Source: a virus | Direction: 5' to 3' (one strand) | Virus record (IMG/VR): IMGVR_UViG_3300018080_005856 | Coordinates: 32,001-96,000 of that record | Length of the DNA: 64,000 nt | Shown: one piece after another, positions 1,896-58,233 of the stretch | Layout: each line of letters starts with the position of its first letter | Position numbering within the stretch: the first letter of the stretch is position 1 | Program-made: the position numbers and the translations under genes | Notes under the pieces: model-generated | Seen by the model: only the letters and a program-made list of their open reading frames with translations | Told to the model about the DNA's origin: nothing | Databases searched by the model: none

Positions 1896-2323
1896 ATAAG
1901 TGCTCCATTATTGTCAGTAGCAGCTGGTTCAAATGTATAAAGGATGTCTTCTTCTCTTATCGTAGTTTCCAGAACATCAGCTATGTTATTCTTCAGAAAC
2001 GAGAGTGAGCATACCTTTTCCTTTATTGTTTTTGGAAGGAACATATCAAGGCACAGGGCGCTTCTAACAGCTCTGATCAAATGTATCTTGTCTATCCCCG
2101 TGAGGCTCCTGTTGGATCTCCAATTCCTCTTTGACCATTCCATAATGGCCCTTTCCCATTTCGCTATGTCCTTCGGGTACTTTCTAAACGATAACTGTCT
2201 TACCCCAAATACAGTCTTATGTACTGTAATCGCATATATATTATTAAGAAGACTAATAAATATTGCTCTTCCTCCAAGTTGTAATCCGGGTTGTGATCCA
2301 GATTGTTTATGTAGCTTGATCAT
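1892..2323 (-). CDS. hypothetical protein
   Basis: 143-aa ORF overlapping the next gene by 4 nt. Confidence 0.65.
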   Translation of the reverse strand: MIKLHKQSGSQPGLQLGGRAIFISLLNNIYAITVHKTVFGVRQLSFRKYPKDIAKWERAIMEWSKRNWRSNRSLTGIDKIHLIRAVRSALCLDMFLPKTIKEKVCSLSFLKNNIADVLETTIREEDILYTFEPAATDNNGALI

Positions 2324-2346
2324 CTCAATTCTCCAGGTTGTGAAAA

Positions 2347-2694
2347 CTACTCTTCATGTACCATGAAGCATTCTACCTCTAATGCTTCGTCCTCGTTCAA
2401 AACATCCAGATATTGATCCGGATATGGTACCAGATTTATATCTTCTATATTATGCTCAGGTACATCGAAGACTATTGATGGGTATACTGTACCCAGATTT
2501 GCAATCATAGTTACAGTTTCCCTTTCCGGAGATATTCTCTTCAACAAGACAGATAGTCTACGATATCCTCTGTTGTACGGGCCCATTCTAAAAGGACTAA
2601 ACTCTATTGGCATATAGAACCTAACGTTGCATATCTTGCCAACAAGATTGGTGAACCTTCCCATTCGGATAACCTTTGTTATGTCGTGACACAT
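2347..2694 (-). CDS. putative Sm-like protein (paralog family A)
   Basis: LVGKICNVRF...LLKRISPERETVTM...FDVPEHNIEDI. Confidence 0.55.
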   Translation of the reverse strand: MCHDITKVIRMGRFTNLVGKICNVRFYMPIEFSPFRMGPYNRGYRRLSVLLKRISPERETVTMIANLGTVYPSIVFDVPEHNIEDINLVPYPDQYLDVLNEDEALEVECFMVHEE

Positions 2695-3062
2695 TAACTA
2701 TTTCCTGCGAAATCCTTTATCTTAACGATCTTTATAAACCCCGTATGGTATAACTCTTTTAGGGTGTCCATATGTATGCCTTTACAGCTATAATGGTCTG
2801 GTTTACCACTCTCATCTATCAACTTCATTATATTAGTCATAGAGGTATGTTCTACAGCCTGGTAGAGTGCGGCTTTGGCATGGTGTTCCTTTCCCCATGA
2901 ATGTTTGCCCTTCAGTGTCTTGACTCTCTTACCGTCTACCACAATACAGTATCCATCTTCATCGTCCATGACTTTGGTACTACTTTCTATGGCTTTCACA
3001 ACGGCGGCTCTGAAGCTCTTCTTCCTTATTTCTTCTGTGATATTAACCTTATCATTACTCAT
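2694..3062 (-). CDS. hypothetical protein
   Basis: 122-aa ORF, TAATG coupling to the next gene. Confidence 0.7.
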   Translation of the reverse strand: MSNDKVNITEEIRKKSFRAAVVKAIESSTKVMDDEDGYCIVVDGKRVKTLKGKHSWGKEHHAKAALYQAVEHTSMTNIMKLIDESGKPDHYSCKGIHMDTLKELYHTGFIKIVKIKDFAGNS

Positions 3063-3068
3063 CTTTGC

Positions 3069-3440
3069 TTATTCTCCATTAACAATTGAGATTTCCGCCT
3101 CCCTCGCGTGACCTTCTCTGATCTCACGAATTATGTCTTTTACTGTGGTTGTGTTAAAGTCTACTACTGGATCTACTACTGGATTGTGGGTAATCCTTCT
3201 TATATACGTTGCTGGGATTCCCAAAAGAAGTACAATACCTTCAAAATATCCTGCTACATTAATTGTCCTAAGGTCTTCTGATATTTCCAGAACTACCACA
3301 TTCAAGGTGTCATATTGTCCAAACTCTTTGTATCCTGCTACCGTTATCATTACGTTCAAGTATATACGAGTGAAGCTATTAAGGTAGGGTTTAAAACCTT
3401 CAGCACGTAGTATATCTAATATATCCACACTTTGTTTCAT
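3069..3440 (-). CDS. putative Sm-like protein (paralog family A)
   Basis: VVVLEISEDLRTINV...GIPATYIRRI; clearly similar to the adjacent 3437..3769. Confidence 0.6.
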   Translation of the reverse strand: MKQSVDILDILRAEGFKPYLNSFTRIYLNVMITVAGYKEFGQYDTLNVVVLEISEDLRTINVAGYFEGIVLLLGIPATYIRRITHNPVVDPVVDFNTTTVKDIIREIREGHAREAEISIVNGE

Positions 3441-3769
3441 AGCAGGGACACCTCAGCTTTCTCGAAGGCTTCGCTCTTGAACATATCAATAAGACGTTTG
3501 CTGTGCATATCACCAAGGCTAAGAGGCTCCACTCTCCTTACAAATCTTATAGGAATATCAGACAGAATGTTACAAGAATACCCAAAGTCGTATATTAGCC
3601 TAACATGTGAACAATCTTCTGATATTCCTAGTATTACCCCTACAAGCTCAAGTCCCCGCCATACCTCTTTGTCAGCAACTACATTAGCCAGTTTAATGAA
3701 ACAAATACAGCACAGTCTATTACTAAGCTCGGTAAACTGTGCCGCACGTATTACATCAGTGATGTTCAT
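3437..3769 (-). CDS. putative Sm-like protein (paralog family A)
   Basis: LVGVILGISEDCSHVRL...DIPIRFVRRVEP. Confidence 0.6.
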   Translation of the reverse strand: MNITDVIRAAQFTELSNRLCCICFIKLANVVADKEVWRGLELVGVILGISEDCSHVRLIYDFGYSCNILSDIPIRFVRRVEPLSLGDMHSKRLIDMFKSEAFEKAEVSLL

Positions 3770-7150: not shown

Positions 7151-7675
7151 TTAACCTGCCTTCTTCTTTCTTAACGGTTTTCCTTTGACCTTGGCCACTT
7201 CCGCAGATAGTTTGTCCAAAATGGATACCGCCGCTTTGGAAACACGTGATAGTTTATCCTTCAGCAGTTGGATGTCATACTCTATCGATTCAAAGAACTC
7301 AGTTCTAAGGTCTTCATCGCTTATAACATCGGTATATTTCATATAGCCACGACCAGATGTTCTGTTTCCTGGAGTGGATACATATTCTCTTACCTCTATT
7401 GGCTTTGCTTGTTTTCCTCCAGGTATGACAACTATTTTCATTTCCCTTATGAGTTCTGACGCTACTCCTAGATTGTACTTCTCTGCCGCTTTCTTCGTAT
7501 CCCATTCAAACGCATGATACTTATGTGTATACGACTTAGGGTTCTTGGCCAGTTTGTAAACCATATACTGATCCAGGTAACCGTCGTTATTGTCGCAAAG
7601 TTCCTTCAGTTCCTTTCTTATCTGGGACCTCACGTTAGGACCACGCTTCTTTCTAGTTGCTTTCTCGTTCTTCAT
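7151..7675 (-). CDS. accessory protein of the RAMP/VIPR-like module (FEWD motif family)
   Basis: GYLDQYMVYKLAKNPKSYTHKYHAFEWDTKKAAEKYNLGVASELI matches a phage family (G.L....V...A....S..H..FEWD...AA..Y.L..A..LI) that I recall next to phage Cas7-like genes; strong CAGGAGG RBS. Confidence 0.7.
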   Translation of the reverse strand: MKNEKATRKKRGPNVRSQIRKELKELCDNNDGYLDQYMVYKLAKNPKSYTHKYHAFEWDTKKAAEKYNLGVASELIREMKIVVIPGGKQAKPIEVREYVSTPGNRTSGRGYMKYTDVISDEDLRTEFFESIEYDIQLLKDKLSRVSKAAVSILDKLSAEVAKVKGKPLRKKKAG

Positions 7676-7706
7676 GTTGTTCCTCCTGTTATATATTATA
7701 TATGTT

Positions 7707-7728
7707 AAAAGAGAGGCCGAAGCCTCTC
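7707..7728 (-). terminator. intrinsic terminator closing the periodic RNA
   Basis: GAGAGGC-TTCG-GCCTCTC hairpin followed by TTTT on the minus strand. Confidence 0.85.
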
Positions 7729-7741
7729 ATAACTTTGATGC

Positions 7742-7796
7742 AGACGAGTTGAATTGTGATGACTTGAACTGCTTCAAATCGTGACGCGAGGACCCG
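7742..7796 (-). ncRNA. 5-nt-periodic putative guide RNA (CRN-NN x11), VIPR-RNA-like
   Basis: Minus strand: CGG GT, CCT CG, CGT CA, CGA TT, TGA AG, CAG TT, CAA GT, CAT CA, CAA TT, CAA CT, CGT CT; C in phase in 10/11 units and a purine at the next position in 10/11; lies between a promoter-like motif (7816-7829) and a terminator. Confidence 0.7.
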
Positions 7797-7829
7797 GCAA
7801 CTATTATTCATAGTTCATATATATGGAAA

Positions 7830-8471
7830 CTACTTATCAGATATCTTAAATCTGCCATTCATTCCACCCTTTCCAGATTTAGCTTCAGCTCTTCCAACGC
7901 CCAAACCAACTTCAAGGCCGGCTCTGTGCATCAGTTCTGTCAGTGTTTTTACCGATATTGTATCGGCATCATACTCTACCCTTGCCTTGATGCTCCATGT
8001 TTCCCACATTGTGCATATTGACGCCACAGATTTACCTTGGTCAGTTCTCACTACCCTGGGTAAGCATACTGGTGTTCCAACTACCTCTATAACCGGTGTT
8101 CCACATCTCCTATCAACCCCATCAGCCAGAGAGAATACCGTTTGTTTCATCTGGTTCATGGTGAGATCCGTATTCCTTGCTGCAGAGATTAGAGCAGACC
8201 TTATGGATAATGCACTTATTCCTATCTTGCCTTTTCCAAAGGTGTACCTGCTTTCTAAGTATAAGTACTCAAGATCAGGTTTCTCCTCCGCACCTCTCCT
8301 TGCTCGCTTCCCCGGTTCCTTGTCGAATAGGGACTTTATAATTCTGTCCCTCGATTCCCCTGACATTCTGTGACATATCAGTGGAGAAATACCCTTAAGA
8401 TGAAATACAACTATCTTGTGGTTGGGCATCACAGATAGTACTTGTTCCTTACTTTTCTTTGATGGTGCCAT
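7830..8471 (-). CDS. Cas7/RAMP-like protein (Vipr-like), 213 aa
   Basis: First strand VVFHLKGISPLICH, ISALSIRSALISAAR helix, WSIKARVEYD strand and C-terminal glycine-rich loop AGLEVGLGVGRAEAKSGKGGMNGRFKI; GAAAGGAGG RBS sets the start at 8471. Confidence 0.8.
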   Translation of the reverse strand: MAPSKKSKEQVLSVMPNHKIVVFHLKGISPLICHRMSGESRDRIIKSLFDKEPGKRARRGAEEKPDLEYLYLESRYTFGKGKIGISALSIRSALISAARNTDLTMNQMKQTVFSLADGVDRRCGTPVIEVVGTPVCLPRVVRTDQGKSVASICTMWETWSIKARVEYDADTISVKTLTELMHRAGLEVGLGVGRAEAKSGKGGMNGRFKISDK

Positions 8472-8554
8472 GAGTGTCCTCCTTTCTATATTTTCAGGAA
8501 TATGGAAACTACAGATTGGGACATTGGGTTCCAGACCTTGGAAAGAAAGGGGAC

Positions 8555-8749
8555 CTAGTCCCCCTTGGTGTTGTCTTTCCTGACCTGACATAGCAAGTAT
8601 CTCTTTGCTATTGCCATGTTCATTTGATAACGGATGGCCCATGATTGAATATCCATAGCCGGCCGTTCAATTGATTTCTCATAATCAACTAGATCCGTTC
8701 CAAACATGGTCAGTGATTTAATGATATCTACTCTACCTGTCTTTGACAT
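8555..8749 (-). CDS. hypothetical protein
   Basis: 64-aa ORF followed by a GGGGACTAGGTCCCC hairpin and T tract. Confidence 0.65.
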   Translation of the reverse strand: MSKTGRVDIIKSLTMFGTDLVDYEKSIERPAMDIQSWAIRYQMNMAIAKRYLLCQVRKDNTKGD

Positions 8750-8752
8750 AAT

Positions 8753-9172
8753 CTATTCTCCGGCTTCTGCCTCCTTTAGCGCGCAGTTGATGCACACCAT
8801 GCGGCCGTCCCTATGCCTCTGAATCCTGAGGCTCTTTGGGGTGTTACTCCAGTATTCTCCACATACATCGCATTTCTCCATATCTGTAGCCCCAAGTTCG
8901 CCTTCCCTTTGATTCATGGCATCTGGGTCAGTTTTCTGGCAGCCACAGTTTTCGCATACCATGTACTCGTCTTCCAGCAACCACCCACAACGACACTCCC
9001 ACATAGGTATCAGGCATTCAGCATAACCAGTTTCCGCTTTTGACTGCCTCTCTTTCTTCCATTTGGAACACACTTCAAGAGCATCTTCCAAGTCGTAGAA
9101 TTCTCCCTTGTGCCATATATTAGAGGTAATGCCGTCTTTGTGATAGCCTATTGATACTACTTTGTACTTCAT
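8753..9172 (-). CDS. zinc-ribbon protein
   Basis: CRC, CENC, CDVC and CINC motifs; AAGGAGG RBS. Confidence 0.7.
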   Translation of the reverse strand: MKYKVVSIGYHKDGITSNIWHKGEFYDLEDALEVCSKWKKERQSKAETGYAECLIPMWECRCGWLLEDEYMVCENCGCQKTDPDAMNQREGELGATDMEKCDVCGEYWSNTPKSLRIQRHRDGRMVCINCALKEAEAGE

Positions 9173-9184
9173 TTAGGAACCTCC

Positions 9185-9376
9185 TTACTGTTCAAATGGG
9201 TTGTACTGCAGCAAACACCAATCTAGCCGTAGTTCTCTTCTCTTTCGCTTCTTCTTCTTCCATGGGAGCTTCTTTGATTCTTCCCATTCTCTGAAGATGC
9301 GTTCTTTCATAGATGCTTTGGCTTCTGCAAGGTCACATAGAGTTTGCGACATTATTTGCAAATAAGTTCTCCTCAT
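9185..9376 (-). CDS. small basic hypothetical protein
   Basis: AAGGAGG RBS; LPWKKKKRKRREL motif. Confidence 0.7.
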   Translation of the reverse strand: MRRTYLQIMSQTLCDLAEAKASMKERIFREWEESKKLPWKKKKRKRRELRLDWCLLQYNPFEQ

Positions 9377-9423
9377 AGTTTCTATTCCTCCTTTATATAG
9401 TCTATTCTATGGAATTGCTCCAC

Positions 9424-9669
9424 CTATAGTCCTTGTGGCATTGGCATCCAGCCAGCAACATCTTCGCATGCTATATATGCTGGAATGAATCCATCATCAA
9501 AGTATAATGCGTTCTTAAGCTGATCTCTATAGCATGTGCCACCAAATTCCTGGTCATCTTTGGACAGATAACCAACGGTGACCCGGTTGCGTGTCCTATT
9601 GGGATAGACCAGTGACAGTATAATTGTCTTACCCTCTATAGGGTCCCTATCCGTAATCCAGTCATTCAT
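9424..9669 (-). CDS. DUF551-like protein
   Basis: N-terminal WITDRDP and C-terminal VAGWMPMP motifs. Confidence 0.7.
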   Translation of the reverse strand: MNDWITDRDPIEGKTIILSLVYPNRTRNRVTVGYLSKDDQEFGGTCYRDQLKNALYFDDGFIPAYIACEDVAGWMPMPQGL

Positions 9670-9670
9670 G

Positions 9671-9991
9671 TCATGACCTCCTCTCTTTCATTTCGAGCCT
9701 CTCGAGTCTCTCGTTCTCAAGCATATCCACCATTCTTCTATAGGCCTCATCTAGCATCTCTATGTGATCCATCGGGTAGCCGGTCCAAGTCATCATCTCT
9801 GCTACTATTTGACCAAACCATTTTACCAAACCGCCCATACTTGAGAGATCGCGCCCGGCCATGTCTAGTGGGCTACCTTGCACTTTTGTGCTGTTGACAA
9901 CCCCGATTAGATCCTCGAGGAAGCTAGCCTTGTTAGCTAATTCCCTAATGACATTACTCATGTCCTCGATCAGTTCGTCTTTTATTACCAT
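9671..9991 (-). CDS. hypothetical protein
   Basis: AAGGAGG RBS, 106 aa. Confidence 0.7.
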   Translation of the reverse strand: MVIKDELIEDMSNVIRELANKASFLEDLIGVVNSTKVQGSPLDMAGRDLSSMGGLVKWFGQIVAEMMTWTGYPMDHIEMLDEAYRRMVDMLENERLERLEMKERRS

Positions 9992-10009
9992 TGTTCGTCC
10001 TCCTTACTA

Positions 10010-10375
10010 TTATATGTTACTATTAGCATAGAAGATAATAGTGTTAGGTTTATCCAAGGATTCTGCCAGATCTAGTGAGTGCTTTGTTCCTCTGCTTTCT
10101 CCATCCCAGAATGCCAGAACCATGTCACAATGATCCACTATGAGCTTATTCCTCTTGTATCCCGCTGATTTGCCGTACTTGTTCCACTCAGCTCTGAATA
10201 CTGTCAAGGGTATATTGTTCTCATTCGCATATCTTGCTCCCAGGGAATCAGCTCCCCTGGCACCGCCAGATACTATTTCCTCTATTTCGTGACCGTTTCT
10301 TATGAGCTCTTCAACACTCTGCTTGAGTAATTCATAGTCGTCGAATTCTCTTGATCCTATTATTGCTAGTATCAT
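10010..10375 (-). CDS. SLOG-family (YspA/DUF2493-like) protein
   Basis: IIGSREF...IVSGGARGADSLG...AEWNKYGKSAGYKRN...AFWDGESRGT motifs. Confidence 0.9.
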   Translation of the reverse strand: MILAIIGSREFDDYELLKQSVEELIRNGHEIEEIVSGGARGADSLGARYANENNIPLTVFRAEWNKYGKSAGYKRNKLIVDHCDMVLAFWDGESRGTKHSLDLAESLDKPNTIIFYANSNI

Positions 10376-10499
10376 GTTACATCCTCCTTAAGTTATATTC
10401 ATATATATAGAAAGGCGAATCTTAAGCCATGTGTTCCAGAGTACCAGTAAAAGAAGCGGGCGTTAGCCCGCGGTTGTTTCTCACTATGATGACCTATTG

Positions 10500-10781
10500 C
10501 TACTCGGGGTAGCTGTTGTCGCCCTCGGCTTCAGCTTCCTCGGGTTGCTCTTTATTAGCTTCAGCAACAGAGCCACTTACCTTCTCAAGATACTCCTTTG
10601 CAGGTATTGTGACTTCATAGGTCGGAAGTATGATGGTCGTCCTCATGATGTCTTCACCGGTTGACTTGTTCTTATAGTCACCCTTACGCTCTCTGAACTC
10701 ACATTTCTTGAGAACTTCCTCATCAAATAAGCCCATCTTCTTTAGCTGAACGAATTGGCCTCTAGTAATCGTACATTGCAT
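10500..10781 (-). CDS. hypothetical protein with acidic tail
   Basis: CAGGAGG RBS; followed by the GCGGGC-TAAC-GCCCGC terminator. Confidence 0.7.
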   Translation of the reverse strand: MQCTITRGQFVQLKKMGLFDEEVLKKCEFRERKGDYKNKSTGEDIMRTTIILPTYEVTIPAKEYLEKVSGSVAEANKEQPEEAEAEGDNSYPE

Positions 10782-10981
10782 GACGATACCCTCCTGTTTG
10801 TGATTCGCGAATCAAGAATGATTCACGCGAGATATTTCTATCTCATATGTATGGAAAGGAAAGGGCCTTTCGGCCCTTAGGGATCATAGCGTTTATCAAA
10901 CAAGGGATGACCCCTTATCAATCATCATACTAGGAGATACCATAAATATGGAAAAAGAGAGCTGGCCTGCTCTCTTAATCC

Positions 10982-11104
10982 GTGCGTGTTATAGTATTGG
11001 CTTTGTTCCTGCGGTCAGCCTACCCAGCAGTTGAGCAGTTACAGGAACTATAAGTGCTCACCACCGGCTCCTCTGGATCCGCGAAATCCTTCGGGATAAC
11101 ACAC
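10982..11104 (-). ncRNA. candidate structured ncRNA with kissing loop
   Basis: Closing stem GTGTGTTAT/ATAACACGC; hairpin CCGGTGGTGAGCA/TGCTCAACTGCTGG whose loop GTTCCTGT complements loop GCAGGAAC of the next hairpin; has its own promoter motif and terminator. Confidence 0.55.
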
Positions 11105-11139
11105 CTCTGTATTATACCACGAGTAAGGAATCGAAGAAA

Positions 11140-11340
11140 CTATCCTCCGGCTCCATGCTTACAAAGACAGTCCTTAGACACACACTTACCTGTGTGATCA
11201 ACCTGACATGGGCCGCAGCCTTCACATATAACTACGGCATACATGCCTTTCCTGGTATCCTCTTCTGATGATAAACCGGATAGATCGCCTAGATCTTCAC
11301 CAAAGTGATCTATACTGCACTGCTTACAGAAATCAGCCAT
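11140..11340 (-). CDS. small Cys-rich protein
   Basis: MADFCKQC...CEGCG...VDHTGKC; CAGGAGG RBS. Confidence 0.75.
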   Translation of the reverse strand: MADFCKQCSIDHFGEDLGDLSGLSSEEDTRKGMYAVVICEGCGPCQVDHTGKCVSKDCLCKHGAGG

Positions 11341-11398
11341 AGCTATTCCTCCTGTATTATAGTCACAGTTATGGAAAAGATGAGAGCCAGAGGCTCTC

Positions 11399-11677
11399 TT
11401 ATCCGAGATGTATGGGTCTGTTCTTCATATAGATATAGGCAACAAGTCCAGCTACGGCTACACATCCGAATCCTGTGAGGAACAGGTACAGAATAGTAAG
11501 CCATATGCTTCCAGTTCCTATCAAGAACAGAACTATTGAGCCTGTAGCCATGGCCCCTACTATCCATAGTTTCTTATCGTAGATATTCGGGTTGTTTCTC
11601 TTTACATTCACTGAGAATGCCCACCAGCTTACTACGATAGAAGCCACATAAACCAGAACGGCTAGAAATGTAATCAT
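11399..11677 (-). CDS. membrane protein (3 TM)
   Basis: Three hydrophobic segments; GGAGGAGG RBS. Confidence 0.75.
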   Translation of the reverse strand: MITFLAVLVYVASIVVSWWAFSVNVKRNNPNIYDKKLWIVGAMATGSIVLFLIGTGSIWLTILYLFLTGFGCVAVAGLVAYIYMKNRPIHLG

Positions 11678-11722
11678 GATAACACCTCCTCCATCTATTC
11701 TATCAGTAAGGAAAGAAGGGGA

Positions 11723-11923
11723 CTACTCGTCCCCGAAGATGTTGTCCTGGCATTTCTGGCACAACCCTGATATTTCGTACTCTTTCCGAGATAGATCATC
11801 TCTGAAGCTATTCGGATTAGGGAGTACTACTTGATGGCAAATAGGACATCTACGTGACTCTATGTCCTTCTTTGCCTCAGGGAATACCTTGAATACGGGT
11901 TTGTTAAGATCTGGTTTATTCAT
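11723..11923 (-). CDS. small zinc-binding protein
   Basis: CPIC...FRDDLSRKEYEISGLCQKCQD motif. Confidence 0.75.
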   Translation of the reverse strand: MNKPDLNKPVFKVFPEAKKDIESRRCPICHQVVLPNPNSFRDDLSRKEYEISGLCQKCQDNIFGDE

Positions 11924-11978
11924 GTCTAAACAGCCTCCAGACTAACCATATTATGAATATTACTATCAACAATTCCAT
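11916..11978 (-). CDS. 20-aa hydrophobic micropeptide
   Basis: TAAGGAGG RBS then MELLIVIFIIWLVWRLFRHE*. Confidence 0.5.
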   Translation of the reverse strand: MELLIVIFIIWLVWRLFRHE

Positions 11979-12009
11979 GACTGGCCTCCTTATCATAAGT
12001 ATGAAATTT

Positions 12010-12641
12010 ATCCCCCTTTCCTGTATCCGGGGTACCATTGTCCCTTCAGACTCGCGCCCCTCTTGAGGAAGCTTAATAATAACAGAGCGCACCATTCCAG
12101 ACATCTGCGAGCGAACGGCGCCAGCCGGCCGGAGATGCACAGCTATGCCTGTCATTCTACCGTGCGTCATTCAAGAGATGGAATTAAGCCTCGCGAGGGA
12201 CTAAAGAGAAATACTCTGACGGCTACTCGTCAATAGTCTAATAAGGGATTATCGCCCGGGAAAATAGCCCTGTAACCCAGTACATTTCCCTATGGCTCCG
12301 GCTATTGCTCGGTCACTCTCCCCCTCAAGGGGGCCGGACGCCTCTTACAATCCTATTTCTCAGCTGTTTTCATGTACATCCCTCTCCTGTACATGAATGC
12401 TGTCGACACTTCCATAAATCCTCCGGGGAAAGGGTAATCACCCCCAGATATCCAGTATAAATACTGATATATCCAGGGACGGGGGAGGAAATCCCCCGGA
12501 CCCCCTCTATTCCTAGCCAATCAAGATCCTGAACCGGTAAAATATATAGATCGGGTATGAGCCGATCCATATATCTGTCACAGAAGCGTCAGCCACACCC
12601 CTGCCGGTCGGCCCCACCAATGGCTGAAATGGGAAGGCCCC
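12010..12641 (-). ncRNA. candidate large (~630 nt) structured ncRNA
   Basis: No RBS-led ORF; GC-rich; many stems including long-range GACGCTTCT/AGAGGCGTC and a pseudoknot; starts right after the promoter motif at 12647. Confidence 0.6.
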
Positions 12642-12671
12642 ATTTGTATGGAAAAGAAGAGGCCGTAGCCT

Positions 12672-12938
12672 CTATTCATTGCTAGTTGATATGACTATTC
12701 GCCCTTCATCATCAAACTCGTTGTTGTGTTCGTATGGGTTATACCCCATCCTCTTTAAATCATGTAAGGCGGCACGGCAGGATTTTATCTCGCCGTTGCA
12801 ACTAAAGACGATAAGTATGGTGATATGGTCACCAGTATGCTCGTCCACCGCGCAGAGGTCAACGTTAGTATGGACGGACTTCTCCAGCACTATACACCAG
12901 TGCTTGTTTTCTTTATGTTTTCCTTCAAACATTCTCAT
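12672..12938 (-). CDS. hypothetical protein
   Basis: AAGGAGG RBS; terminator AGAGGCTACGGCCTCT overlaps the stop. Confidence 0.75.
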   Translation of the reverse strand: MRMFEGKHKENKHWCIVLEKSVHTNVDLCAVDEHTGDHITILIVFSCNGEIKSCRAALHDLKRMGYNPYEHNNEFDDEGRIVISTSNE

Positions 12939-13058
12939 CTCTATTTCCTCCTTGTTTTATCATAGCCAATTTGGGGGGTCTACCAAAGCAGAACACCCCC
13001 AAAGTAAGCTATTATGATCAACGTCCTCATAAATATAGAAAAGAAGAGGCCGTAGCCT

Positions 13059-13334
13059 CTATACTCGCCAGGTTCTTATATCATTGACGGCCTTACTAAT
13101 ATCAACGTGTTGAGCCAGAATATCTCGGGCTACGTCTATCTTTCCCTGTCTGTAGGCCTCGTACCATATGGCCTGAGTAAGCTCAGATATTGCTTTTATA
13201 TCCTCATCTTTTACATCCTTTCCCATATGTACTACCTTATCCAGGAACTGGAAAGCGCATCTGTGGATTTGAACTCGGTGCAGCTCACTATCCTCTGAAA
13301 ACGTTACTTCACATAGAACTAAAGAATCGTCCAT
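13059..13334 (-). CDS. hypothetical protein
   Basis: AAAGGAGGT RBS sets the start at 13334 (MDDSLV); same terminator sequence as the next gene. Confidence 0.7.
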   Translation of the reverse strand: MDDSLVLCEVTFSEDSELHRVQIHRCAFQFLDKVVHMGKDVKDEDIKAISELTQAIWYEAYRQGKIDVARDILAQHVDISKAVNDIRTWRV

Positions 13335-13408
13335 GTATATTACCTCCTTTAATGTAGTTGACTTATGATCAATGTCCTCGTAAATATGGAAAAGAGGGCT
13401 ATTAACCC

Positions 13409-13816
13409 TCAGTGTGAGCATGGTGCCCCTGTAGCAAGGCGCGCCTCAGCGTCAGCGGGGTTCTCACCCGCATTTACATGGACAAACTCTATTTCTATTT
13501 GGTCCTTCACACGAGTTATCCACTCCTGGTACTCTTTTGTGGCCGGTTTCTTAGCCTTCCAAGAGCCATTCGCCCAAGCAGATACACCTTCGTAGTAGTG
13601 TTTAATGACTACTTTCTCGTACCCCTTGGAATGAGCATATCTGACAGCCTCTATGGCTGCCTTGATTTCGCCCCCTACGTTCCTCATAGAGACAATATCG
13701 TCCCTAACTAAGGCGCCATGGGCTTTATACCCATCAGAAGCCACTATCCCCCAACCCACAAGGGTTGGATTATTAATAGTAAACGAGCCGTCAGTATAAA
13801 CCTCTATAGTTCTCAC
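13409..13816 (-). CDS. RNase HI-fold protein (possibly catalytically altered)
   Basis: VYTDGSF, RNVGGEIKAAIEAV, EGVSAWANGSWKAKK and NPADAEAR motifs; GGAGGTG RBS with GTG start. Confidence 0.85.
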   Translation of the reverse strand: MRTIEVYTDGSFTINNPTLVGWGIVASDGYKAHGALVRDDIVSMRNVGGEIKAAIEAVRYAHSKGYEKVVIKHYYEGVSAWANGSWKAKKPATKEYQEWITRVKDQIEIEFVHVNAGENPADAEARLATGAPCSH

Positions 13817-13864
13817 AACATCACCTCCAATACAGATATATAACAAATCTCATATATATAGAAA

Positions 13865-14245
13865 CACGCTATATTACCTCTTTTATTACCTTTACATACT
13901 GAGATATTACCCTCACTACATACATCTCATTGCCCTTACATACAATATGGGGGTGCGTCCCTCTATACAGTACTCCCCTTCTATGCCATTACAATACCTA
14001 TACCGGGTACAATACAATACAATACTAGATACAATACCAGGTACATGAACTTGACAGGGCTAGGACGCTCATTATTTATATACTGAGCTATTATTTGTGA
14101 CCTGACTTATGCAGGTCATTATATGGGTTTAAGACCCATATTATTGGCAAAACTGTCAGATTCTTGACAGTAATTTGCTTATGGGTTCCCCTCCCTAAAG
14201 GGCACCCTCCCCATGTGTTCCTTATGTGTTTTTATGTTAAAAGGG
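13865..14245. repeat. non-coding region with CAATA/TATTAC short repeats and hairpins
   Basis: tacaatacaatacaatac at ~14008-14025, tattacc x3, inverted repeats TGACCTG/CAGGTCA, ATATGGGT/ACCCATAT and CTGTCA/TGACAG. Confidence 0.5.
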
Positions 14246-14248
14246 GGC

Positions 14249-14584
14249 CTAGTGGCCCCAGATCTTATGGTCTTGATACTTCCATATAGGCAGTGATATG
14301 CTATATACTAGGGCGCCTAGCACCGCAGTATTTCTACAGTAGTACCAGAGACACTTCAATATGGCCGGATAGCCGTAATAATACGCTACCAGGGTCCATA
14401 TTCCGAATATGAAGGAACAGGTATATGCCAGCATAGCTAGCGTTTCACTTTCCCTCCATGTTGCCATTCCTATCAGGAATAGCACCGCAGTTATAATATG
14501 TAACCCATACGCTACAGATAGGACACTTCCGTATTCTGTAGACTGACTCAGTATGGGCCTTCCCTCTATAATGAACCAATCCAC
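14249..14584 (-). CDS. membrane protein
   Basis: Three hydrophobic segments; GGAGGT RBS with GTG start. Confidence 0.7.
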   Translation of the reverse strand: MDWFIIEGRPILSQSTEYGSVLSVAYGLHIITAVLFLIGMATWRESETLAMLAYTCSFIFGIWTLVAYYYGYPAILKCLWYYCRNTAVLGALVYSISLPIWKYQDHKIWGH

Positions 14585-14764
14585 GATTACCTCCAGTAAG
14601 TATGATTATATTGTACTTTCTTGCTGTTATGGGCTGTCACAGCAAGGAGACGAGGGGGTAGCCTAAGTACATAGGCATCCAGATTCCGAGTCAGGTACTG
14701 GCTAAACGACAGTCCTGATTCTCACCCATGGGTATGGAAACGTAAAGGGGAGGGCCTTAGCCCT

Positions 14765-14944
14765 CTATTCTAATGTGGTTACGATCTCTTTTACCAACTC
14801 CATTCCCTCTTTCCCATACTCTATGAGTTTAGGGAGTTCATCTCCGGAGATCTCATATTTGAGATCTACTTTGGCGCCTGACAGGCTGAACTTCTCGTCC
14901 GGGACTTCAAGGGACTTTACTTCGAATGTCATTTGCATGATCAT
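14765..14944 (-). CDS. small hypothetical protein (59 aa, not in ORF track)
   Basis: AGGAG RBS; MIMQMTFEVKSLEVPDEKFSLSGAKVDLKYEISG...; flanked by a promoter motif and a terminator. Confidence 0.7.
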   Translation of the reverse strand: MIMQMTFEVKSLEVPDEKFSLSGAKVDLKYEISGDELPKLIEYGKEGMELVKEIVTTLE

Positions 14945-15035
14945 GATATATACTCCTGTTAGTATGATTTGGGACTCTATATCCCACTATTATGGAAAGA
15001 TGAGGGCCTATTAAGCCCTCTATGTTTACTCGGTT

Positions 15036-15308
15036 TTAACCCTCTCTGACGGTAGCTGTCTGCCGGGACAATTTCTCCATCTTTACGAGGGCTTTCTGCT
15101 CTTTCCTGTATGCGTTTACAGCATTAAGCAGGTGCTGCCTGCAGACGTGGCAGGACATGATATGATCGATTGTTTCGATGTTATCATGAATGAGCTTCTC
15201 GCTCTTCTCTGCATTGTTACAGGTATTATGTTCGACCCACTTCTTCTCCAGTTTGTGAGAAGTGTTTGCGAGTCCTGTTACGGCGTTAGTTACTATGTTC
15301 TTAAACAT
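15036..15308 (-). CDS. hypothetical protein
   Basis: TAAGGAGGT RBS; 90 aa; H..SC..C motif. Confidence 0.7.
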   Translation of the reverse strand: MFKNIVTNAVTGLANTSHKLEKKWVEHNTCNNAEKSEKLIHDNIETIDHIMSCHVCRQHLLNAVNAYRKEQKALVKMEKLSRQTATVREG

Positions 15309-15347
15309 AGTGGTACCTCCTTAGGTAATATTCATGAGTATGGAAAA

Positions 15348-15473
15348 GAGAGGCGAGCCGGTGCAATATCCTGCGTGCCCTCGTTAACTTTCAGATGTTT
15401 CGGGAGTAACCCTATCAACTGTTGGTATGGAGTGACGCATTCCCTTTCCCCGTTGGGACACCGTGATCCTCTC
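15348..15473 (-). ncRNA. candidate ~125-nt structured ncRNA
   Basis: Nested stems GAGAGG/CCTCTC, CGGTGT/GCACCG and TGCGT/ACGCA; begins at the G of the promoter motif and ends in a T tract; no ORF. Confidence 0.5.
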
Positions 15474-15495
15474 ATTTATATGGAAAGAGAAGGGG

Positions 15496-15684
15496 CTATG
15501 CCCCTAGGATTGACATTCCTGTGTATTTCCCTTTCTCCAGGGTTTCTACCACCGCTTTCTTTATAAGATCAGTAGGCCTGCCAAGGATAACACCCAGAAA
15601 CAGAACGAAGTCTGCCTCTTTCTTGTTTACCTCTGGGGCACCAGATTCTCTGATCTTCCGCTTCCAAATTGACATTGATATCAT
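15496..15684 (-). CDS. hypothetical protein
   Basis: GAGGAGGT RBS; terminator overlaps the stop. Confidence 0.65.
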   Translation of the reverse strand: MISMSIWKRKIRESGAPEVNKKEADFVLFLGVILGRPTDLIKKAVVETLEKGKYTGMSILGA

Positions 15685-15896
15685 CTCAGTACCTCCTCAA
15701 TATTGATATGAATCCCGGCTTCCTCAAAACGTCTTACTGTCTCGAGGTTATCTATGAACCCGGGTAACTCTCTCTTTACCTGCTGTAGCATGCGGGTGAG
15801 CTTTTGCCTCGCTACAACATTCCTACGAATCTTATCAATATCAGAGTCATTAAGGCCCTGTATAAAGCGTATAGCTTTAATCATATCTATTTTCAT
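15681..15896 (-). CDS. hypothetical protein
   Basis: AAAGGAGG RBS. Confidence 0.7.
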   Translation of the reverse strand: MKIDMIKAIRFIQGLNDSDIDKIRRNVVARQKLTRMLQQVKRELPGFIDNLETVRRFEEAGIHINIEEVLR

Positions 15897-16439
15897 GATA
15901 TTGCCTCCTTTGCACCGCCCACTATTCTAGAGGTGGGACAATGCATATATATGGAAAAGGAAGGCCGTGCACAGCCTCCCATACGGGATACATGGATTAC
16001 AGTTGGGCTAGGCACCTCGTCATTTCAGACTGTCTATTTACGCTCAGAGTGGACCATCTCTTCATCACGCACGTGACCGTCTTCTTGGTACCATTCCCAC
16101 GCTTATCTCCAGGGGATCCAGACCTGAAGATTATAGCTTCACCCAAGGACTTATCCGATTGTATGAAGCAGGTAGGGCGCCCCCTGAACGAATCCAGAGA
16201 ACGCCCTTTCAGTGGGTTTCACAGAAGAATACAACGGGGTATTAGGAAGGATTAAATATAATACCGCTAGTATGGAACCCCAAACAGAACCCCGGTAATA
16301 TAGTAATAACCCCCTATAAAGGGAAGGGTAGCCTCTTACCGCCGTTAATCCTCCCTGTAATGCGCATGGTAACGACCTTAAGTTGTTACATTATGTGAGC
16401 AGGGTAGGTCTGAACCTACCACTCACCATAAGGCCTGCT

Positions 16440-55967: not shown

Positions 55968-57941
55968 TCACCTATACCAAATGTCCCATGCCCAGCGGTC
56001 AGCTCCTTCACCTGTCAGCATAATAAGCTTATCTTTAAAAGATTCCATAGTATGCCCGCGTCTGGGTATAACTTCGCTATTAAAGCTTACAGGATTCCAT
56101 GTTATACCGTCAGATGACGACCAGGTGTCGTCACGGCGGCCAAAGGTGTAAGGGCTTTCATCATCAAAATGTACCCTTAAACATACAGCAGTACAGTAGG
56201 CGTCATGTGTATATTCAATAGTGCCGTAACTTACCAGTGTGACCCCAACTTCCAAATCTGTAATTTCCGCCCAGGTCCAGGGCACCCCGGTGTCCGGGTT
56301 GTCTGTCCAGGTGTATGTTCTGCCTTCATAATTGCCTGTTGTAGATATTATTGGATCCAGATCTGTAGATTCAAATATAGAACCGTTTGTCATTATAGCT
56401 GCCCTCGCATTTGCAGAGGAACCGCTCCTTCTCACAGAAACAAACACCTCTATGCTTGCTATATAGCCGCCCCAGGCCAGAGGATTGTCCTCTACCTCGT
56501 AGAGGTCCCTGTAAGTGCCTCCGGATGGAGGACCGCCTTCAGTAGATACCCTGGTTATATCACCATCTATTTCTCCCGGATCATTTACACTGCTGTAATG
56601 CGGAGAAGATGGGGGATACGGCATGCTGGTTTCTGAACCATCGCCAGTCACCATCAGTACACCTACTGCCGGGATCCCATACTCTCCGCCGTTGATCCAT
56701 AACTTCCCGTCATGCACTGCGGAAGCAAACATTGCTCGTGTTCCAAAACCTATACCAGCTGGAGGTACTTTGTCCCATACAAGGCCGTCAGACGAATGCC
56801 ACACTTCTGAACTATAGGTATAGCCAGTTATAAGACCATACGAAGACGGTGAAGAACTGTATGAGCATGACATGCCGCCGATAAGCCACATCTCATTATT
56901 GAATACCCGCAACTCAAATAGGGTCCTGCTGGTGAATATGTCCCTGACGTGAGCCCAGTCTGCTGCATTGAATGGATAAGAAGGCCCATGGTCAACTATG
57001 CACGTGTAATGAGAATTATAGTGTGTGACAATATCGCCTACAGAGTAGGACATATCGTACCGCCATCTTGGCGGAGTTACAAGCTCCCAGTCTACTCCGT
57101 TTGTAGACCGCCATACATCATTCTCAAATCCCATTCCGATACAGCCGCCTATAACCCACATGTAACCATCAAAAGAGACAGCTTTATGGCCGGCCCTACC
57201 GCAGAACCCGGGACTGTTCGTTGCTCTGTGCCAGTCTGTGCCATCATAAGAGTACCATACGTCATCGTTGTATGTAGTATCCAGAGACCGGCCTCCTATG
57301 TTCCATATTCTGCCATCATATACGCATGCTGCACTTGCATGGTTGGATATGTTTTCAAAGACAGGATGTTCTGTAGCCAGATACCAGTTGACAGCGTCAT
57401 CTGTATACCATATATCATTAATGAAGTTACCCGAATCGAAGGTGGCTGTATTTACATAGTTCTGGTACCCATTAAAACCACCTATAACCCATAACTTGTC
57501 ATCAAATATAACTGACTGGTACAGACTTCTGGATCTGAACCATGACATTGAGGAAAGAGAAGCCCAGTTATCACCAACTTTTAGAGTATGGCCGGCAGCC
57601 ATTTGACTGTAATCACTGTACCCCTTACTATCACAGTATGCCTGAACCTGGTAGTAATAAAAGTATCCGTCTTTTACGTCAGTGTCAGTAAAGGACAGCT
57701 CTGTAGTTTCACCGATGTAATCTACAACTTCACAAGCTGCCCCGCTCCTGTAAATATAGTAGAGTTCAGCATACTCTACAGCATCCCAGGTTATTACTAC
57801 TCTATCGGCATAATCACCGCAGGTAGCGTGTATGTTTTCCGGTGCCAGATAAGGGGGCTCCTCTTGCTCTATGTCATCATGGCATAGACATCCTGAAAGG
57901 AGAATTAGTAGGAATTGACATAATATTGTTGCAGTCTTCAC
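55968..57941 (-). CDS. lipoprotein with FN3, Kelch-like propeller and CBM5/12-like insert
   Basis: GGAGG + GTG at 57941, lipobox LLSGC, FN3 (VVITWDAV...YYYQVQA), Kelch-like repeats, WRYDMSYSVGDIVTHYNSHYTC insert. Confidence 0.8.
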   Translation of the reverse strand: MKTATILCQFLLILLSGCLCHDDIEQEEPPYLAPENIHATCGDYADRVVITWDAVEYAELYYIYRSGAACEVVDYIGETTELSFTDTDVKDGYFYYYQVQAYCDSKGYSDYSQMAAGHTLKVGDNWASLSSMSWFRSRSLYQSVIFDDKLWVIGGFNGYQNYVNTATFDSGNFINDIWYTDDAVNWYLATEHPVFENISNHASAACVYDGRIWNIGGRSLDTTYNDDVWYSYDGTDWHRATNSPGFCGRAGHKAVSFDGYMWVIGGCIGMGFENDVWRSTNGVDWELVTPPRWRYDMSYSVGDIVTHYNSHYTCIVDHGPSYPFNAADWAHVRDIFTSRTLFELRVFNNEMWLIGGMSCSYSSSPSSYGLITGYTYSSEVWHSSDGLVWDKVPPAGIGFGTRAMFASAVHDGKLWINGGEYGIPAVGVLMVTGDGSETSMPYPPSSPHYSSVNDPGEIDGDITRVSTEGGPPSGGTYRDLYEVEDNPLAWGGYIASIEVFVSVRRSGSSANARAAIMTNGSIFESTDLDPIISTTGNYEGRTYTWTDNPDTGVPWTWAEITDLEVGVTLVSYGTIEYTHDAYCTAVCLRVHFDDESPYTFGRRDDTWSSSDGITWNPVSFNSEVIPRRGHTMESFKDKLIMLTGEGADRWAWDIWYR

Positions 57942-58233
57942 AATGTACCTCCAAGGTAGCATGATCTAGATTTACTACCGGTGGGTTCCAGAAGTGAGCT
58001 ATGTGAGATACATATCTTAATGAAGCCGTCTCCAGGGACCCATCGCGTTGTTCCCGCACGGACTCGTACTTATTAGTCATGAGTAGTTGTTCACTATGAT
58101 TTGTGAACAAATATATCCAGTCAGTATCTGACTGTAATGCCTATCTCACATATGTAGGAAAGCTTTCCTAGTTGGAACTATATTTCGCGTTTCCGAGTGT
58201 TAGACCAGAAGCATCTTCTGGTTAGTGCCTTTC

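What the first reader, a model, noticed from the sequence alone, without database searches (positions are those of the whole stretch)
7742..7796. Readable gapped guide code in the periodic RNA
Seen: plus-strand G at 7746, 7751, 7756, 7761, 7766, 7771, 7781, 7786, 7791 and 7796 (10 of 11 in-phase positions), and a pyrimidine at the preceding position in 10 of 11 units. The other positions vary, so this is not a tandem repeat. Inference: with a CRN scaffold the variable dinucleotides read GT,CG,CA,TT,AG,TT,GT,CA,TT,CT,CT, predicting a target like GTnCGnCAnTTnAGnTTnGTnCAnTTnCTnCT. With an NCR scaffold they read GG,TC,TC,AT,AA,GT,AG,TC,AT,AC,TC. Skipping every third base could make recognition tolerant of codon wobble.
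Basis: partly seen in the sequence, partly recalled or inferred. Interest (0 to 1): 0.75.

Follow-up and report, generated by a model that had tools for sequence, protein, structure and literature searches.

The report
Divergent phage VIPR guide RNA
The 5-base rhythm is real and is most likely the single guide RNA of a phage VIPR system (a CRISPR-like, RNA-guided DNA silencer first described in 2026), here with an unusually weak fixed motif in place of the published GGY.

Summary
Plus-strand G sits at 10 of 11 in-phase positions, with a pyrimidine before it in 10 of 11. It is the strongest period-5 signal in the 150-kb phage record; no simulated genome out of 100 matched it.

The tract lies between two minus-strand genes:
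- a 213-aa RAMP/Cas7-fold protein, whose family profile matches the solved SUSP1 Vipr protein (E 6e-9);
- a 174-aa protein homologous to the gene that follows vipr in four related loci (an accessory "vap").

On the vipr strand there is a phage promoter motif, a 5' hairpin, 11 units of C-R-N-N-N and a UUCG terminator, giving an RNA of about 111 nt. This is the anatomy of a VIPR guide RNA (vrRNA; bioRxiv 2026).

Differences from known systems:
- There is no GGY. Only C (10/11) and the following purine (10/11) are constrained.
- The Vipr residues that hold the two G's in SUSP1 are replaced (R138 equivalent is Cys, D177 equivalent is Val).

Unresolved:
- The guide register is not settled; I favour C as the Y3 position.
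- No target was found in the phage itself, IMG/VR, JGI metagenomes or GTDB genomes.
- All other copies are identical, so there is no comparative evidence.

The scan has already found VIPR arrays on at least 12 other genomes.

The parts
7830..8471 (-). vipr: 213-aa RAMP/Cas7-fold protein (P0001), a homologue of the VIPR effector
   Evidence: The family profile A1 hits PDB 36pp_D 'SUSP1 Vipr protein' at E 6.3e-9 and the SUSP1 genome at E 2.8e-11. The AF2 model has pLDDT 92 and its best Foldseek hits are Csm3/Cas7 chains. It matches phrog_4652. There are 1035 representative relatives. The residues equivalent to SUSP1 R138 and D177 are C153 and V192.
8495..8508 (-). Promoter-like motif TTTCCATA-N4-TG ahead of vipr, followed by an RBS and ATG
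   Evidence: Motif scan of the genome.
7816..7829 (-). Promoter-like motif TTTCCATATATATG directly after the vipr stop codon; predicted start of the small RNA near 7816
   Evidence: The same 14-mer occurs at two other minus-strand sites. Twelve copies of the motif lie between 7.8 and 16 kb, most placed right after hairpins.
7799..7815 (-). 5' hairpin (6-bp stem, 5-nt loop) at the start of the RNA
   Evidence: Minimum-free-energy and centroid folds. Other cassettes also begin with a stem just after the motif.
7742..7796 (-). Guide region: 11 units of 5 nt, C-R-N-N-N on the minus strand (C 10/11 plus one U; R 10/11; fifth column U 7/11)
7706..7741 (-). 3' tail: 13-nt linker, 7-bp hairpin with a UUCG loop (7711-7728), then UUUU (7707-7710)
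   Evidence: The tail has only 4 U, so the consensus terminator scan did not list it.
7151..7675 (-). vap-like accessory gene (174 aa); RBS AGGAGG at 7682-7687; no promoter motif of its own
   Evidence: BLASTP E 9e-17 to the gene after vipr in L006 and 2e-11 to that in cyanophage Cy-LDV1. It aligns with the equivalent genes in L005 and L008. Both it and the L006 gene match phrog_15946. It is not similar to SUSP1 vap1. The AF2 model is helical with a long C-terminal helix and has no PDB fold match.

Best explanation
The tract is the guide region of the single vrRNA of a divergent VIPR locus, arranged vipr, vrRNA, vap, all on the minus strand.

Inferred mechanism, by homology with SUSP1 and P. 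fulva VIPR. An RNA of about 111 nt is made from the phage promoter motif at 7829-7816 and ends at the UUCG hairpin. One Vipr protomer binds each 5-nt unit, so about 11 protomers form a helical filament. Part of each unit is sequestered by the protein, and two bases per unit are presented for pairing. These pair with double-stranded DNA of a competing mobile element while one target base is skipped per unit, which silences transcription.

This lineage has lost the GG of the canonical GGY. Only a pyrimidine (C in 10 units, U in one) and the purine after it are constrained.

My preferred register puts C at canonical position Y3. The guide is then the next two bases (GG CU GU GA GA AG AA AU AA AA GU), and the predicted target is GGxCTxGTxGAxGAxAGxAAxATxAAxAAxGT.

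Shown: the periodic tract, the Vipr and vap homology, the transcription signals, and the residue substitutions. Inferred: expression of the RNA, filament formation, the register, the one-base skip, and the target.
For: (1) The adjacent protein belongs to the Vipr family. Profile against PDB 36pp_D gives E 6.3e-9 and against the SUSP1 genome 2.8e-11. The fold is RAMP/Csm3-like with pLDDT 92.

(2) The downstream gene is homologous to the gene that follows vipr in L005, L006, L008 and Cy-LDV1.

(3) In those relatives and in SUSP1, 5-nt arrays (GGC/NN or GGT/NN) lie in the spacers flanking vipr and vap, always on the vipr strand. In Cy-LDV1 one array sits between vipr and vap, as here.

(4) The dimensions fit published vrRNAs: 11 units (published range 9-16; about 10 in non-canonical clusters), an RNA of about 111 nt (published about 100), and a repeat tract followed by a structured 3' end (papers 10.64898/2026.04.26.720920 and 10.64898/2026.10.21.760802).

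(5) The tract is the top period-5 signal in the genome, and no GGY/NN array exists anywhere else in the record.

(6) A promoter motif and a terminator flank it on the vipr strand.

(7) The protein changes match the RNA change. The SUSP1 contacts to G1 and G2 (D177, R138) are E and R in 46 and 56 of 60 family members, which use GGC, but V192 and C153 here. The Y3-pocket positions (A93, L94, V188, L190, R194) match the family.

(8) Register with C as Y3: the column is pyrimidine in 11 of 11 units. The following dinucleotides resemble codon positions 1-2 (log-likelihood ratio +3.9 bits), and 67% of first codon positions in this phage are purines, which can account for the R bias.
Against: The fixed motif is weak: one base plus one purine class. 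It matches neither GGY nor the published alternatives NNNGG, YNNNG and NNNNG. It resembles, but does not equal, the reported GAC, CAC, TGH and WGT types.

All five copies of the spacer found in metagenomes are 100% identical, so there is no evidence that scaffold positions are conserved while guide positions vary.

The nearest Vipr relative is only 35% identical.

The protein lacks two residues whose alanine substitution abolishes SUSP1 function. The locus could therefore be decaying or doing something else.

The purine at 10 of 11 falls in a supposedly free guide position under my preferred register.
Confidence: 0.75

Rival explanations
1. The periodicity is a chance or historical residue, for example a decayed former vrRNA. 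The spacer would then be only a 5' leader plus partial terminator that sets how much transcription reads through into the vap-like gene, with no guide function.
For: The constraint is weak: C, plus a purine class. The statistic was chosen after the fact. The vap gene has no promoter motif of its own, so it must be expressed by read-through. Two G-contact residues essential in SUSP1 are substituted. There is no variation among copies.
Against: The genome's strongest period-5 signal coincides with the 154-nt vipr-vap spacer, about 0.1% of the genome. The unit number and RNA length fit vrRNAs. Vipr is intact with a confident fold. The RNA has its own strong promoter motif.
Confidence: 0.12
2. The guide RNA is transcribed from the plus strand, antisense to vipr. 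It would read Y-G-H/NN, a relative of the reported non-canonical TGH/NN or NNNNG repeats with the second G retained.
For: On the plus strand the conserved base is G, as in all published variants. The base before it is a pyrimidine and the base after it is A, C or T in 10 of 11 units. TGH/NN and WGT/NN clusters are reported in 10.64898/2026.10.21.760802.
Against: There is no promoter-like site or U-tract terminator on the plus strand. All neighbouring genes and about a dozen promoter motifs are on the minus strand. In SUSP1, Cy-LDV1, L005, L006 and L008 the arrays are co-oriented with vipr. The residue that holds G2 in SUSP1 (R138) is Cys here. The position after G is mostly a purine, although the pyrimidine pocket is unchanged.
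Confidence: 0.07
3. The tract is a binding site for another multimeric RNA-binding protein, acting as a TRAP-like attenuator: 11 spaced short motifs upstream of a terminator that control the downstream gene.
For: There are eleven units of about 5 nt followed by a terminator and then a gene, which recalls the trp leader bound by the 11-mer TRAP (my own knowledge).
Against: The units are not (G/U)AG triplets on either strand. No alternative antiterminator pairing stands out in the fold. The Vipr homology gives a specific and sufficient explanation.
Confidence: 0.04

Closest known systems
Type II VIPR of Escherichia phage SUSP1 (Vipr + vap1 + four vrRNAs; PDB 36pp; bioRxiv 10.64898/2026.04.26.720920 and .720927)
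   Same: A small single-RRM RAMP protein. Guide RNA of about 100 nt made of about 11-12 tandem 5-nt units followed by a structured 3' end, on the vipr strand in a flanking spacer. A two-gene locus in a phage. I confirmed GGT/NN tracts beside SUSP1 vipr.
   Different: The repeat here is C-R-N-N-N, not GGY/NN. The residues at the SUSP1 G-contacts R138 and D177 are Cys and Val. The accessory gene is unrelated to vap1. There is one vrRNA, not four. The 3' end is a plain UUCG hairpin, not the SUSP1 pseudoknot. The promoter is a phage-specific motif.
The Vipr/vap family of Cy-LDV1, L005, L006 and L008 (phrog_4652 + phrog_15946) with staggered GGC/NN arrays
   Same: This is the closest protein family for both genes (28-35% and about 30% identity). 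The gene order vipr then vap is the same, and Cy-LDV1 also has an array between the two genes.
   Different: Those loci have long GC-rich arrays of many canonical GGC/NN units joined by GGCAGGC junctions. Here there is one 11-unit tract without GG, with its own promoter and terminator.
Non-canonical VIPR arrays (GAC/NN, CAC/NN, WGT/NN, TGH/NN; bioRxiv 10.64898/2026.10.21.760802). Earlier scan notes report CGC and GAY types on other DNA.
   Same: Period 5, about 10 units, next to a Vipr-like fold, and a fixed part that is not GGY. Several types keep C at the third position or C-R at positions 1-2.
   Different: Those have a fixed or nearly fixed trinucleotide shared across a cluster. Here only one base and one purine class are constrained, and the locus is a singleton lineage.
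Class 1 CRISPR Cas7 backbone on crRNA
   Same: RAMP fold with a thumb and a glycine-rich loop. One protomer binds per fixed number of guide nucleotides, with periodic interruption of pairing (and the structural preprint).
   Different: Period 5 rather than 6. No CRISPR array or other cas gene was seen near the locus. The guide is non-contiguous.

Membership tests
VIPR system | Vipr protein: a minimal RAMP (RRM core, glycine-rich loop, thumb) homologous to characterised Vipr | tested here: met
   Profile E 6.3e-9 to PDB 36pp_D and 2.8e-11 on the SUSP1 genome. Foldseek matches to Csm3/Cas7 at probability 1.00.
VIPR system | Tandem 5-nt repeat tract (9-16 units) in a spacer flanking vipr, on the vipr strand | tested here: met
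   11 units at 7742-7796 between vipr and vap. Promoter and terminator lie on the vipr strand.
VIPR system | Repeat consensus GGY/NN, or the published variants NNNGG, YNNNG, NNNNG | tested here: not met
   The vipr strand reads C-R-N-N-N. There is no GGY array anywhere in the 150-kb record. Only the plus strand would give NNNYG.
VIPR system | Base-contact residues of SUSP1 Vipr: H17 and D177 for G1, R138 for G2, R179 pocket for Y3 | tested here: inconclusive
   The H17 and R179 equivalents are kept (H34, R194). The D177 and R138 equivalents are V192 and C153, against E and R in most family members. This is consistent with loss of GG reading, but it is not proof of function.
VIPR system | Adjacent accessory gene (vap) | tested here: met
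   The 174-aa gene is homologous to the genes next to vipr in four relatives. The published vap class could not be assigned.
VIPR system | Conserved structured 3' tail capping the repeat tract | tested here: inconclusive
   A UUCG hairpin follows the tract, but no divergent copies exist to test conservation.
VIPR system | Natural target matching the NN positions under the one-base-skip rule, usually in a competing mobile element | tested here: inconclusive
   No match above chance. The searches of large collections were exact-pattern only.
VIPR system | The RNA is expressed and co-purifies with Vipr; repression is programmable | not testable with these tools
   Needs experiments.
TRAP-type attenuator leader | About 11 (G/U)AG triplets separated by 2-3 nt, overlapping an antiterminator | tested here: not met
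   The units are not GAG/UAG on either strand.

The most novel reading that the evidence does not exclude
This Vipr lineage has stopped reading the two guanines and holds each unit by a single pyrimidine. More than two bases per unit might then be free to pair, or the purine might be read by a new contact. That would be a different non-contiguous code (different skip or pairing arithmetic) from the published 2-pair/1-skip rule, and it would show how the scaffold and the code can evolve.
Probability: 0.12. Interest if true: 0.7.

Novelty: new variant of a known kind. Interest (0 to 1): 0.4.

Why it matters
VIPR is a newly described RNA-guided DNA-recognition system and a proposed precursor of CRISPR. 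Its programmability rests on a fixed GGY scaffold read by defined residues. This locus pairs a Vipr in which two of those residues are replaced with a guide-like RNA that has no GG. If functional, it would show how far the scaffold can degenerate. It would also give a natural test of which contacts set the register, and could widen the sequence space usable for engineered guides. For annotation, phrog_4652 and phrog_15946, both listed as 'unknown function', can be read as Vipr and a vap family. As a discovery it is modest: the kind is known, non-canonical repeats are already reported, and the scan has met VIPR many times.

Tried and rejected
- DNA similarity to known phages: none.
- Relatives of the 270-aa ORF in IMG/VR by peptide patterns: none. 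Alignment A1 was too diverse for the search for related loci.
- Rfam: only a tRNA in the window.
- Pfam: no family for Vipr, vap or the 814-aa ORF. PHROGs found nothing for the 814-aa ORF, so the polymerase that would use the promoter motif is unidentified.
- Self-targeting: all five dinucleotide registers with 0-3 skipped bases, both strands, reached at most 17 of 22, the same as shuffled guides.
- External targets for the register with C as Y3. Full 22-base pattern: 0 hits in IMG/VR, JGI metagenomes and GTDB genomes. The two 16-base halves gave 21 and 117 IMG/VR hits whose extensions follow a chance distribution, best 20 of 22. The 20-base pattern gave 0 metagenome hits and 5 genome hits in unrelated taxa, best 21 of 22 in a Saprospiraceae MAG. 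About 4-5 such hits are expected by chance in 596 Gb.
Full patterns: 0 hits. The 18-base core of the NCR register: 0 hits. The 18-base core of the CRN register: 10 hits in 4 sequence groups, with about 2-4 expected. The best is 20 of 22, at the start codon of a 78-aa membrane-protein gene in one IMG/VR phage group, with the skipped base at codon position 1. Those contigs share no genes with this phage. I judge this to be at chance level.
- No matches in the fetched VIPR loci.
- Comparative test: four other contigs carry the identical spacer. Contigs of relatives lacking the R and E residues were too short or had no DNA.
- The vap fold had no PDB match.
- Host: not identified. The best terminase match is 28% identity to a Moorella phage, and sample accessions gave no host.
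- TRAP-like attenuator idea: dropped once the Vipr homology appeared.

Full report
**1. The observation**

The sequence at 7742-7796 is as described. The plus-strand units are NNNYG, with G at 10 of 11 in-phase positions and a pyrimidine before it in 10 of 11. On the minus strand this reads C-R-N-N-N. Column 1 is C in 10 units and U in one. Column 2 is a purine in 10 of 11. Column 5 is U in 7 of 11. Columns 3 and 4 are mixed.

Tandem Repeats Finder does not call the tract. It is the only G or C hit at period 5 in the window. With 9 of 11 in-phase YG/CR dinucleotides it is the maximum in the whole 150,487-bp virus record for periods 4-7, and none of 100 first-order Markov genomes reached 9.

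**2. Context**

The window is part of an IMG/VR phage record with no close DNA relative among known phages. All genes around the tract are on the minus strand. The tract lies in the 154-nt spacer between a gene at 7830-8471 and a gene at 7151-7675.

A minus-strand motif TTTCCATA-N4-TG recurs twelve times between 7.8 and 16 kb. It usually sits just after a hairpin and just before either an RBS plus ATG or a stem. One copy (8508-8495) precedes the upstream gene. Another (7829-7816), identical over 14 nt to two other copies, starts immediately after that gene's stop codon.

Downstream of this second motif, in order, are:
- a 6-bp hairpin;
- the 11 units;
- a 13-nt linker;
- a 7-bp UUCG hairpin followed by UUUU;
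- AGGAGG and the ATG of the downstream gene, which has no promoter motif of its own.

The predicted RNA is therefore about 111 nt, on the minus strand. The plus strand has no promoter-like or terminator-like site here.

**3. The flanking proteins**

The upstream product is 213 aa (P0001; the 270-aa ORF is an upstream extension). It has no Pfam family but matches phrog_4652, and an exhaustive HMMER search found 1035 representative relatives.

A profile of 60 of these relatives (A1) matches one solved structure, 36pp chain D, 'SUSP1 Vipr protein', at E 6.3e-9. It also finds the corresponding gene in the SUSP1 genome at E 2.8e-11. The AlphaFold model (pLDDT 92) is closest to Csm3/Cas7 RAMP subunits of type III and type VII CRISPR complexes.

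The downstream 174-aa protein (phrog_15946) is homologous to the gene that follows vipr in relatives: L006 (E 9e-17), L005, L008 and cyanophage Cy-LDV1 (E 2e-11). It is not similar to SUSP1 vap1. Its model is helical and has no PDB match.

**4. What the literature says**

Three 2026 preprints describe VIPR systems.
- A minimal RAMP, Vipr, polymerises one protomer per 5-nt unit on a vrRNA of about 100 nt.
- The vrRNA is made of 9-16 YNNGG units, that is GGY/NN, followed by a structured 3' tail.
- The GGY is sequestered. G1 is held by H17 and D177, G2 by R138 and W178, and Y3 sits in a purine-excluding pocket that includes R179.
- The NN dinucleotides pair with double-stranded DNA while every third target base is skipped, usually the codon wobble position.
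- Natural targets are competing phages and satellites, and no self-targets are seen.
- Alternative repeats NNNGG, YNNNG and NNNNG are mentioned.

A fourth preprint reports 21 clusters with non-canonical cores (GAC, CAC, WGT, TGH) of about 10 units beside Vipr-like folds.

I checked the basic claim directly. SUSP1 carries GGT/NN tracts on the vipr strand on both sides of vipr-vap1. The relatives L005, L006/L007, L008 and Cy-LDV1 carry GGC/NN arrays on the vipr strand, and in Cy-LDV1 one array lies between vipr and the vap homologue, as here.

**5. Interpretation**

The position, strand, unit length, unit number, RNA size and flanking genes all fit a vrRNA. There is no canonical GGY/NN array anywhere else in the record, so this tract is the only candidate guide for an intact vipr. 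I put 0.75 on this reading.

**6. What is different here**

The repeat has no GG. In the family alignment, the positions equivalent to SUSP1 R138 and D177 are R in 56 of 60 and E in 46 of 60 members. In P0001 they are C153 and V192. Several other near-invariant glycine-loop and thumb residues also differ (S197A, S200G, G204M, W205N, D149V, R151S).

By contrast, H34 (equivalent to H17), R194 (equivalent to R179) and the other pocket positions (A93, L94, V188, L190) match the family. So the contacts for the two guanines are gone, and the pyrimidine pocket is unchanged.

**7. The register**

Three readings remain on the minus strand.
- A: C is Y3, and the guide is columns 2-3.
- B: C-R-N is the scaffold, and the guide is columns 4-5. 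It has a precedent in the CAC type and in the CGC type noted earlier by this scan.
- C: N-C-R is the scaffold, and the guide is columns 3-4.

I favour A for three reasons.
- The C column is pyrimidine in 11 of 11 units and the pocket is unchanged. Under B the Y3 position would be a purine in 7 of 11 units.
- The substitutions are of a loss-of-contact kind.
- Columns 2-3 resemble codon positions 1-2. The log-likelihood ratio is +3.9 bits for A, against -3.4 and -2.9 for the two orientations of B. Purines occupy 67% of first codon positions in this phage's ORFs. A purine in 10 of 11 units then has a probability of about 0.08 if the guide mirrors a coding strand.

Register C scores equally well in the antisense orientation, so this evidence is not decisive.

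**8. Targets**

No self-target exists in any register or skip, as the papers report for other systems. Searches of IMG/VR, JGI metagenomes and GTDB genomes were limited to exact patterns. They found nothing beyond chance; the details are under Tried and rejected. The host is unknown.

Four further contigs from other samples carry the locus with a 100% identical spacer, so variation of the NN positions could not be tested.

**9. Verdict**

This is a real feature. It is very probably a member of a known, very recently described kind of system. Its interest lies in the degenerate scaffold and the matching protein substitutions. The same scan has already reported VIPR arrays on at least 12 other genomes, including CGC-type and GAC-type variants.

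Noticed in passing
window 7816-15957, minus strand: Twelve copies of TTTCCATA-N4-(T/C)G sit in intergenic gaps, most directly after a hairpin and before an RBS-led gene or a stem. Four more lie upstream of the window start. They look like promoters of one class.
   Followed up: partly
L159 = BK059895.1 (Cyanophage Cy-LDV1), locus 1998-3603: This published cyanophage genome carries an unannotated VIPR locus: a Vipr homologue (g34), a vap homologue (g33) and two GGC/NN arrays at locus 2625-2848 and 3431-3603, all annotated only as hypothetical proteins.
   Followed up: partly
L006 / L007 (JGI 3300017989; ENA ERZ27256778): A second, unrelated, GC-rich phage with a canonical GGC/NN VIPR locus occurs in the same ENA sample (ERZ27256778) as this phage, and in JGI 3300017989, whose accession neighbours this phage's JGI sample (3300017987). 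Neither guide set was found to match the other locus.
   Followed up: partly
L009 versus window 8753-9172: One metagenomic copy of the phage (L009) lacks the 139-aa zinc-ribbon gene upstream of the 64-aa gene and vipr. A YAcAr/SLOG gene sits closer instead. This is structural variation just upstream of an otherwise identical VIPR locus.
   Followed up: no
L003 / L004, locus 2033-2501: Upstream of another Vipr homologue lies a degenerate array punctuated by a recurring ATCGCAGGC motif, with many units departing from GGY. It may be a different array architecture.
   Followed up: no
I judge this to be chance level, but it was the best hit for that register.
   Followed up: partly
window 55968-57962, minus strand: A 664-aa protein with Kelch repeats (Pfam E 1e-14), which is unusual in a phage.
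   Followed up: no
I did not check this.
   Followed up: no
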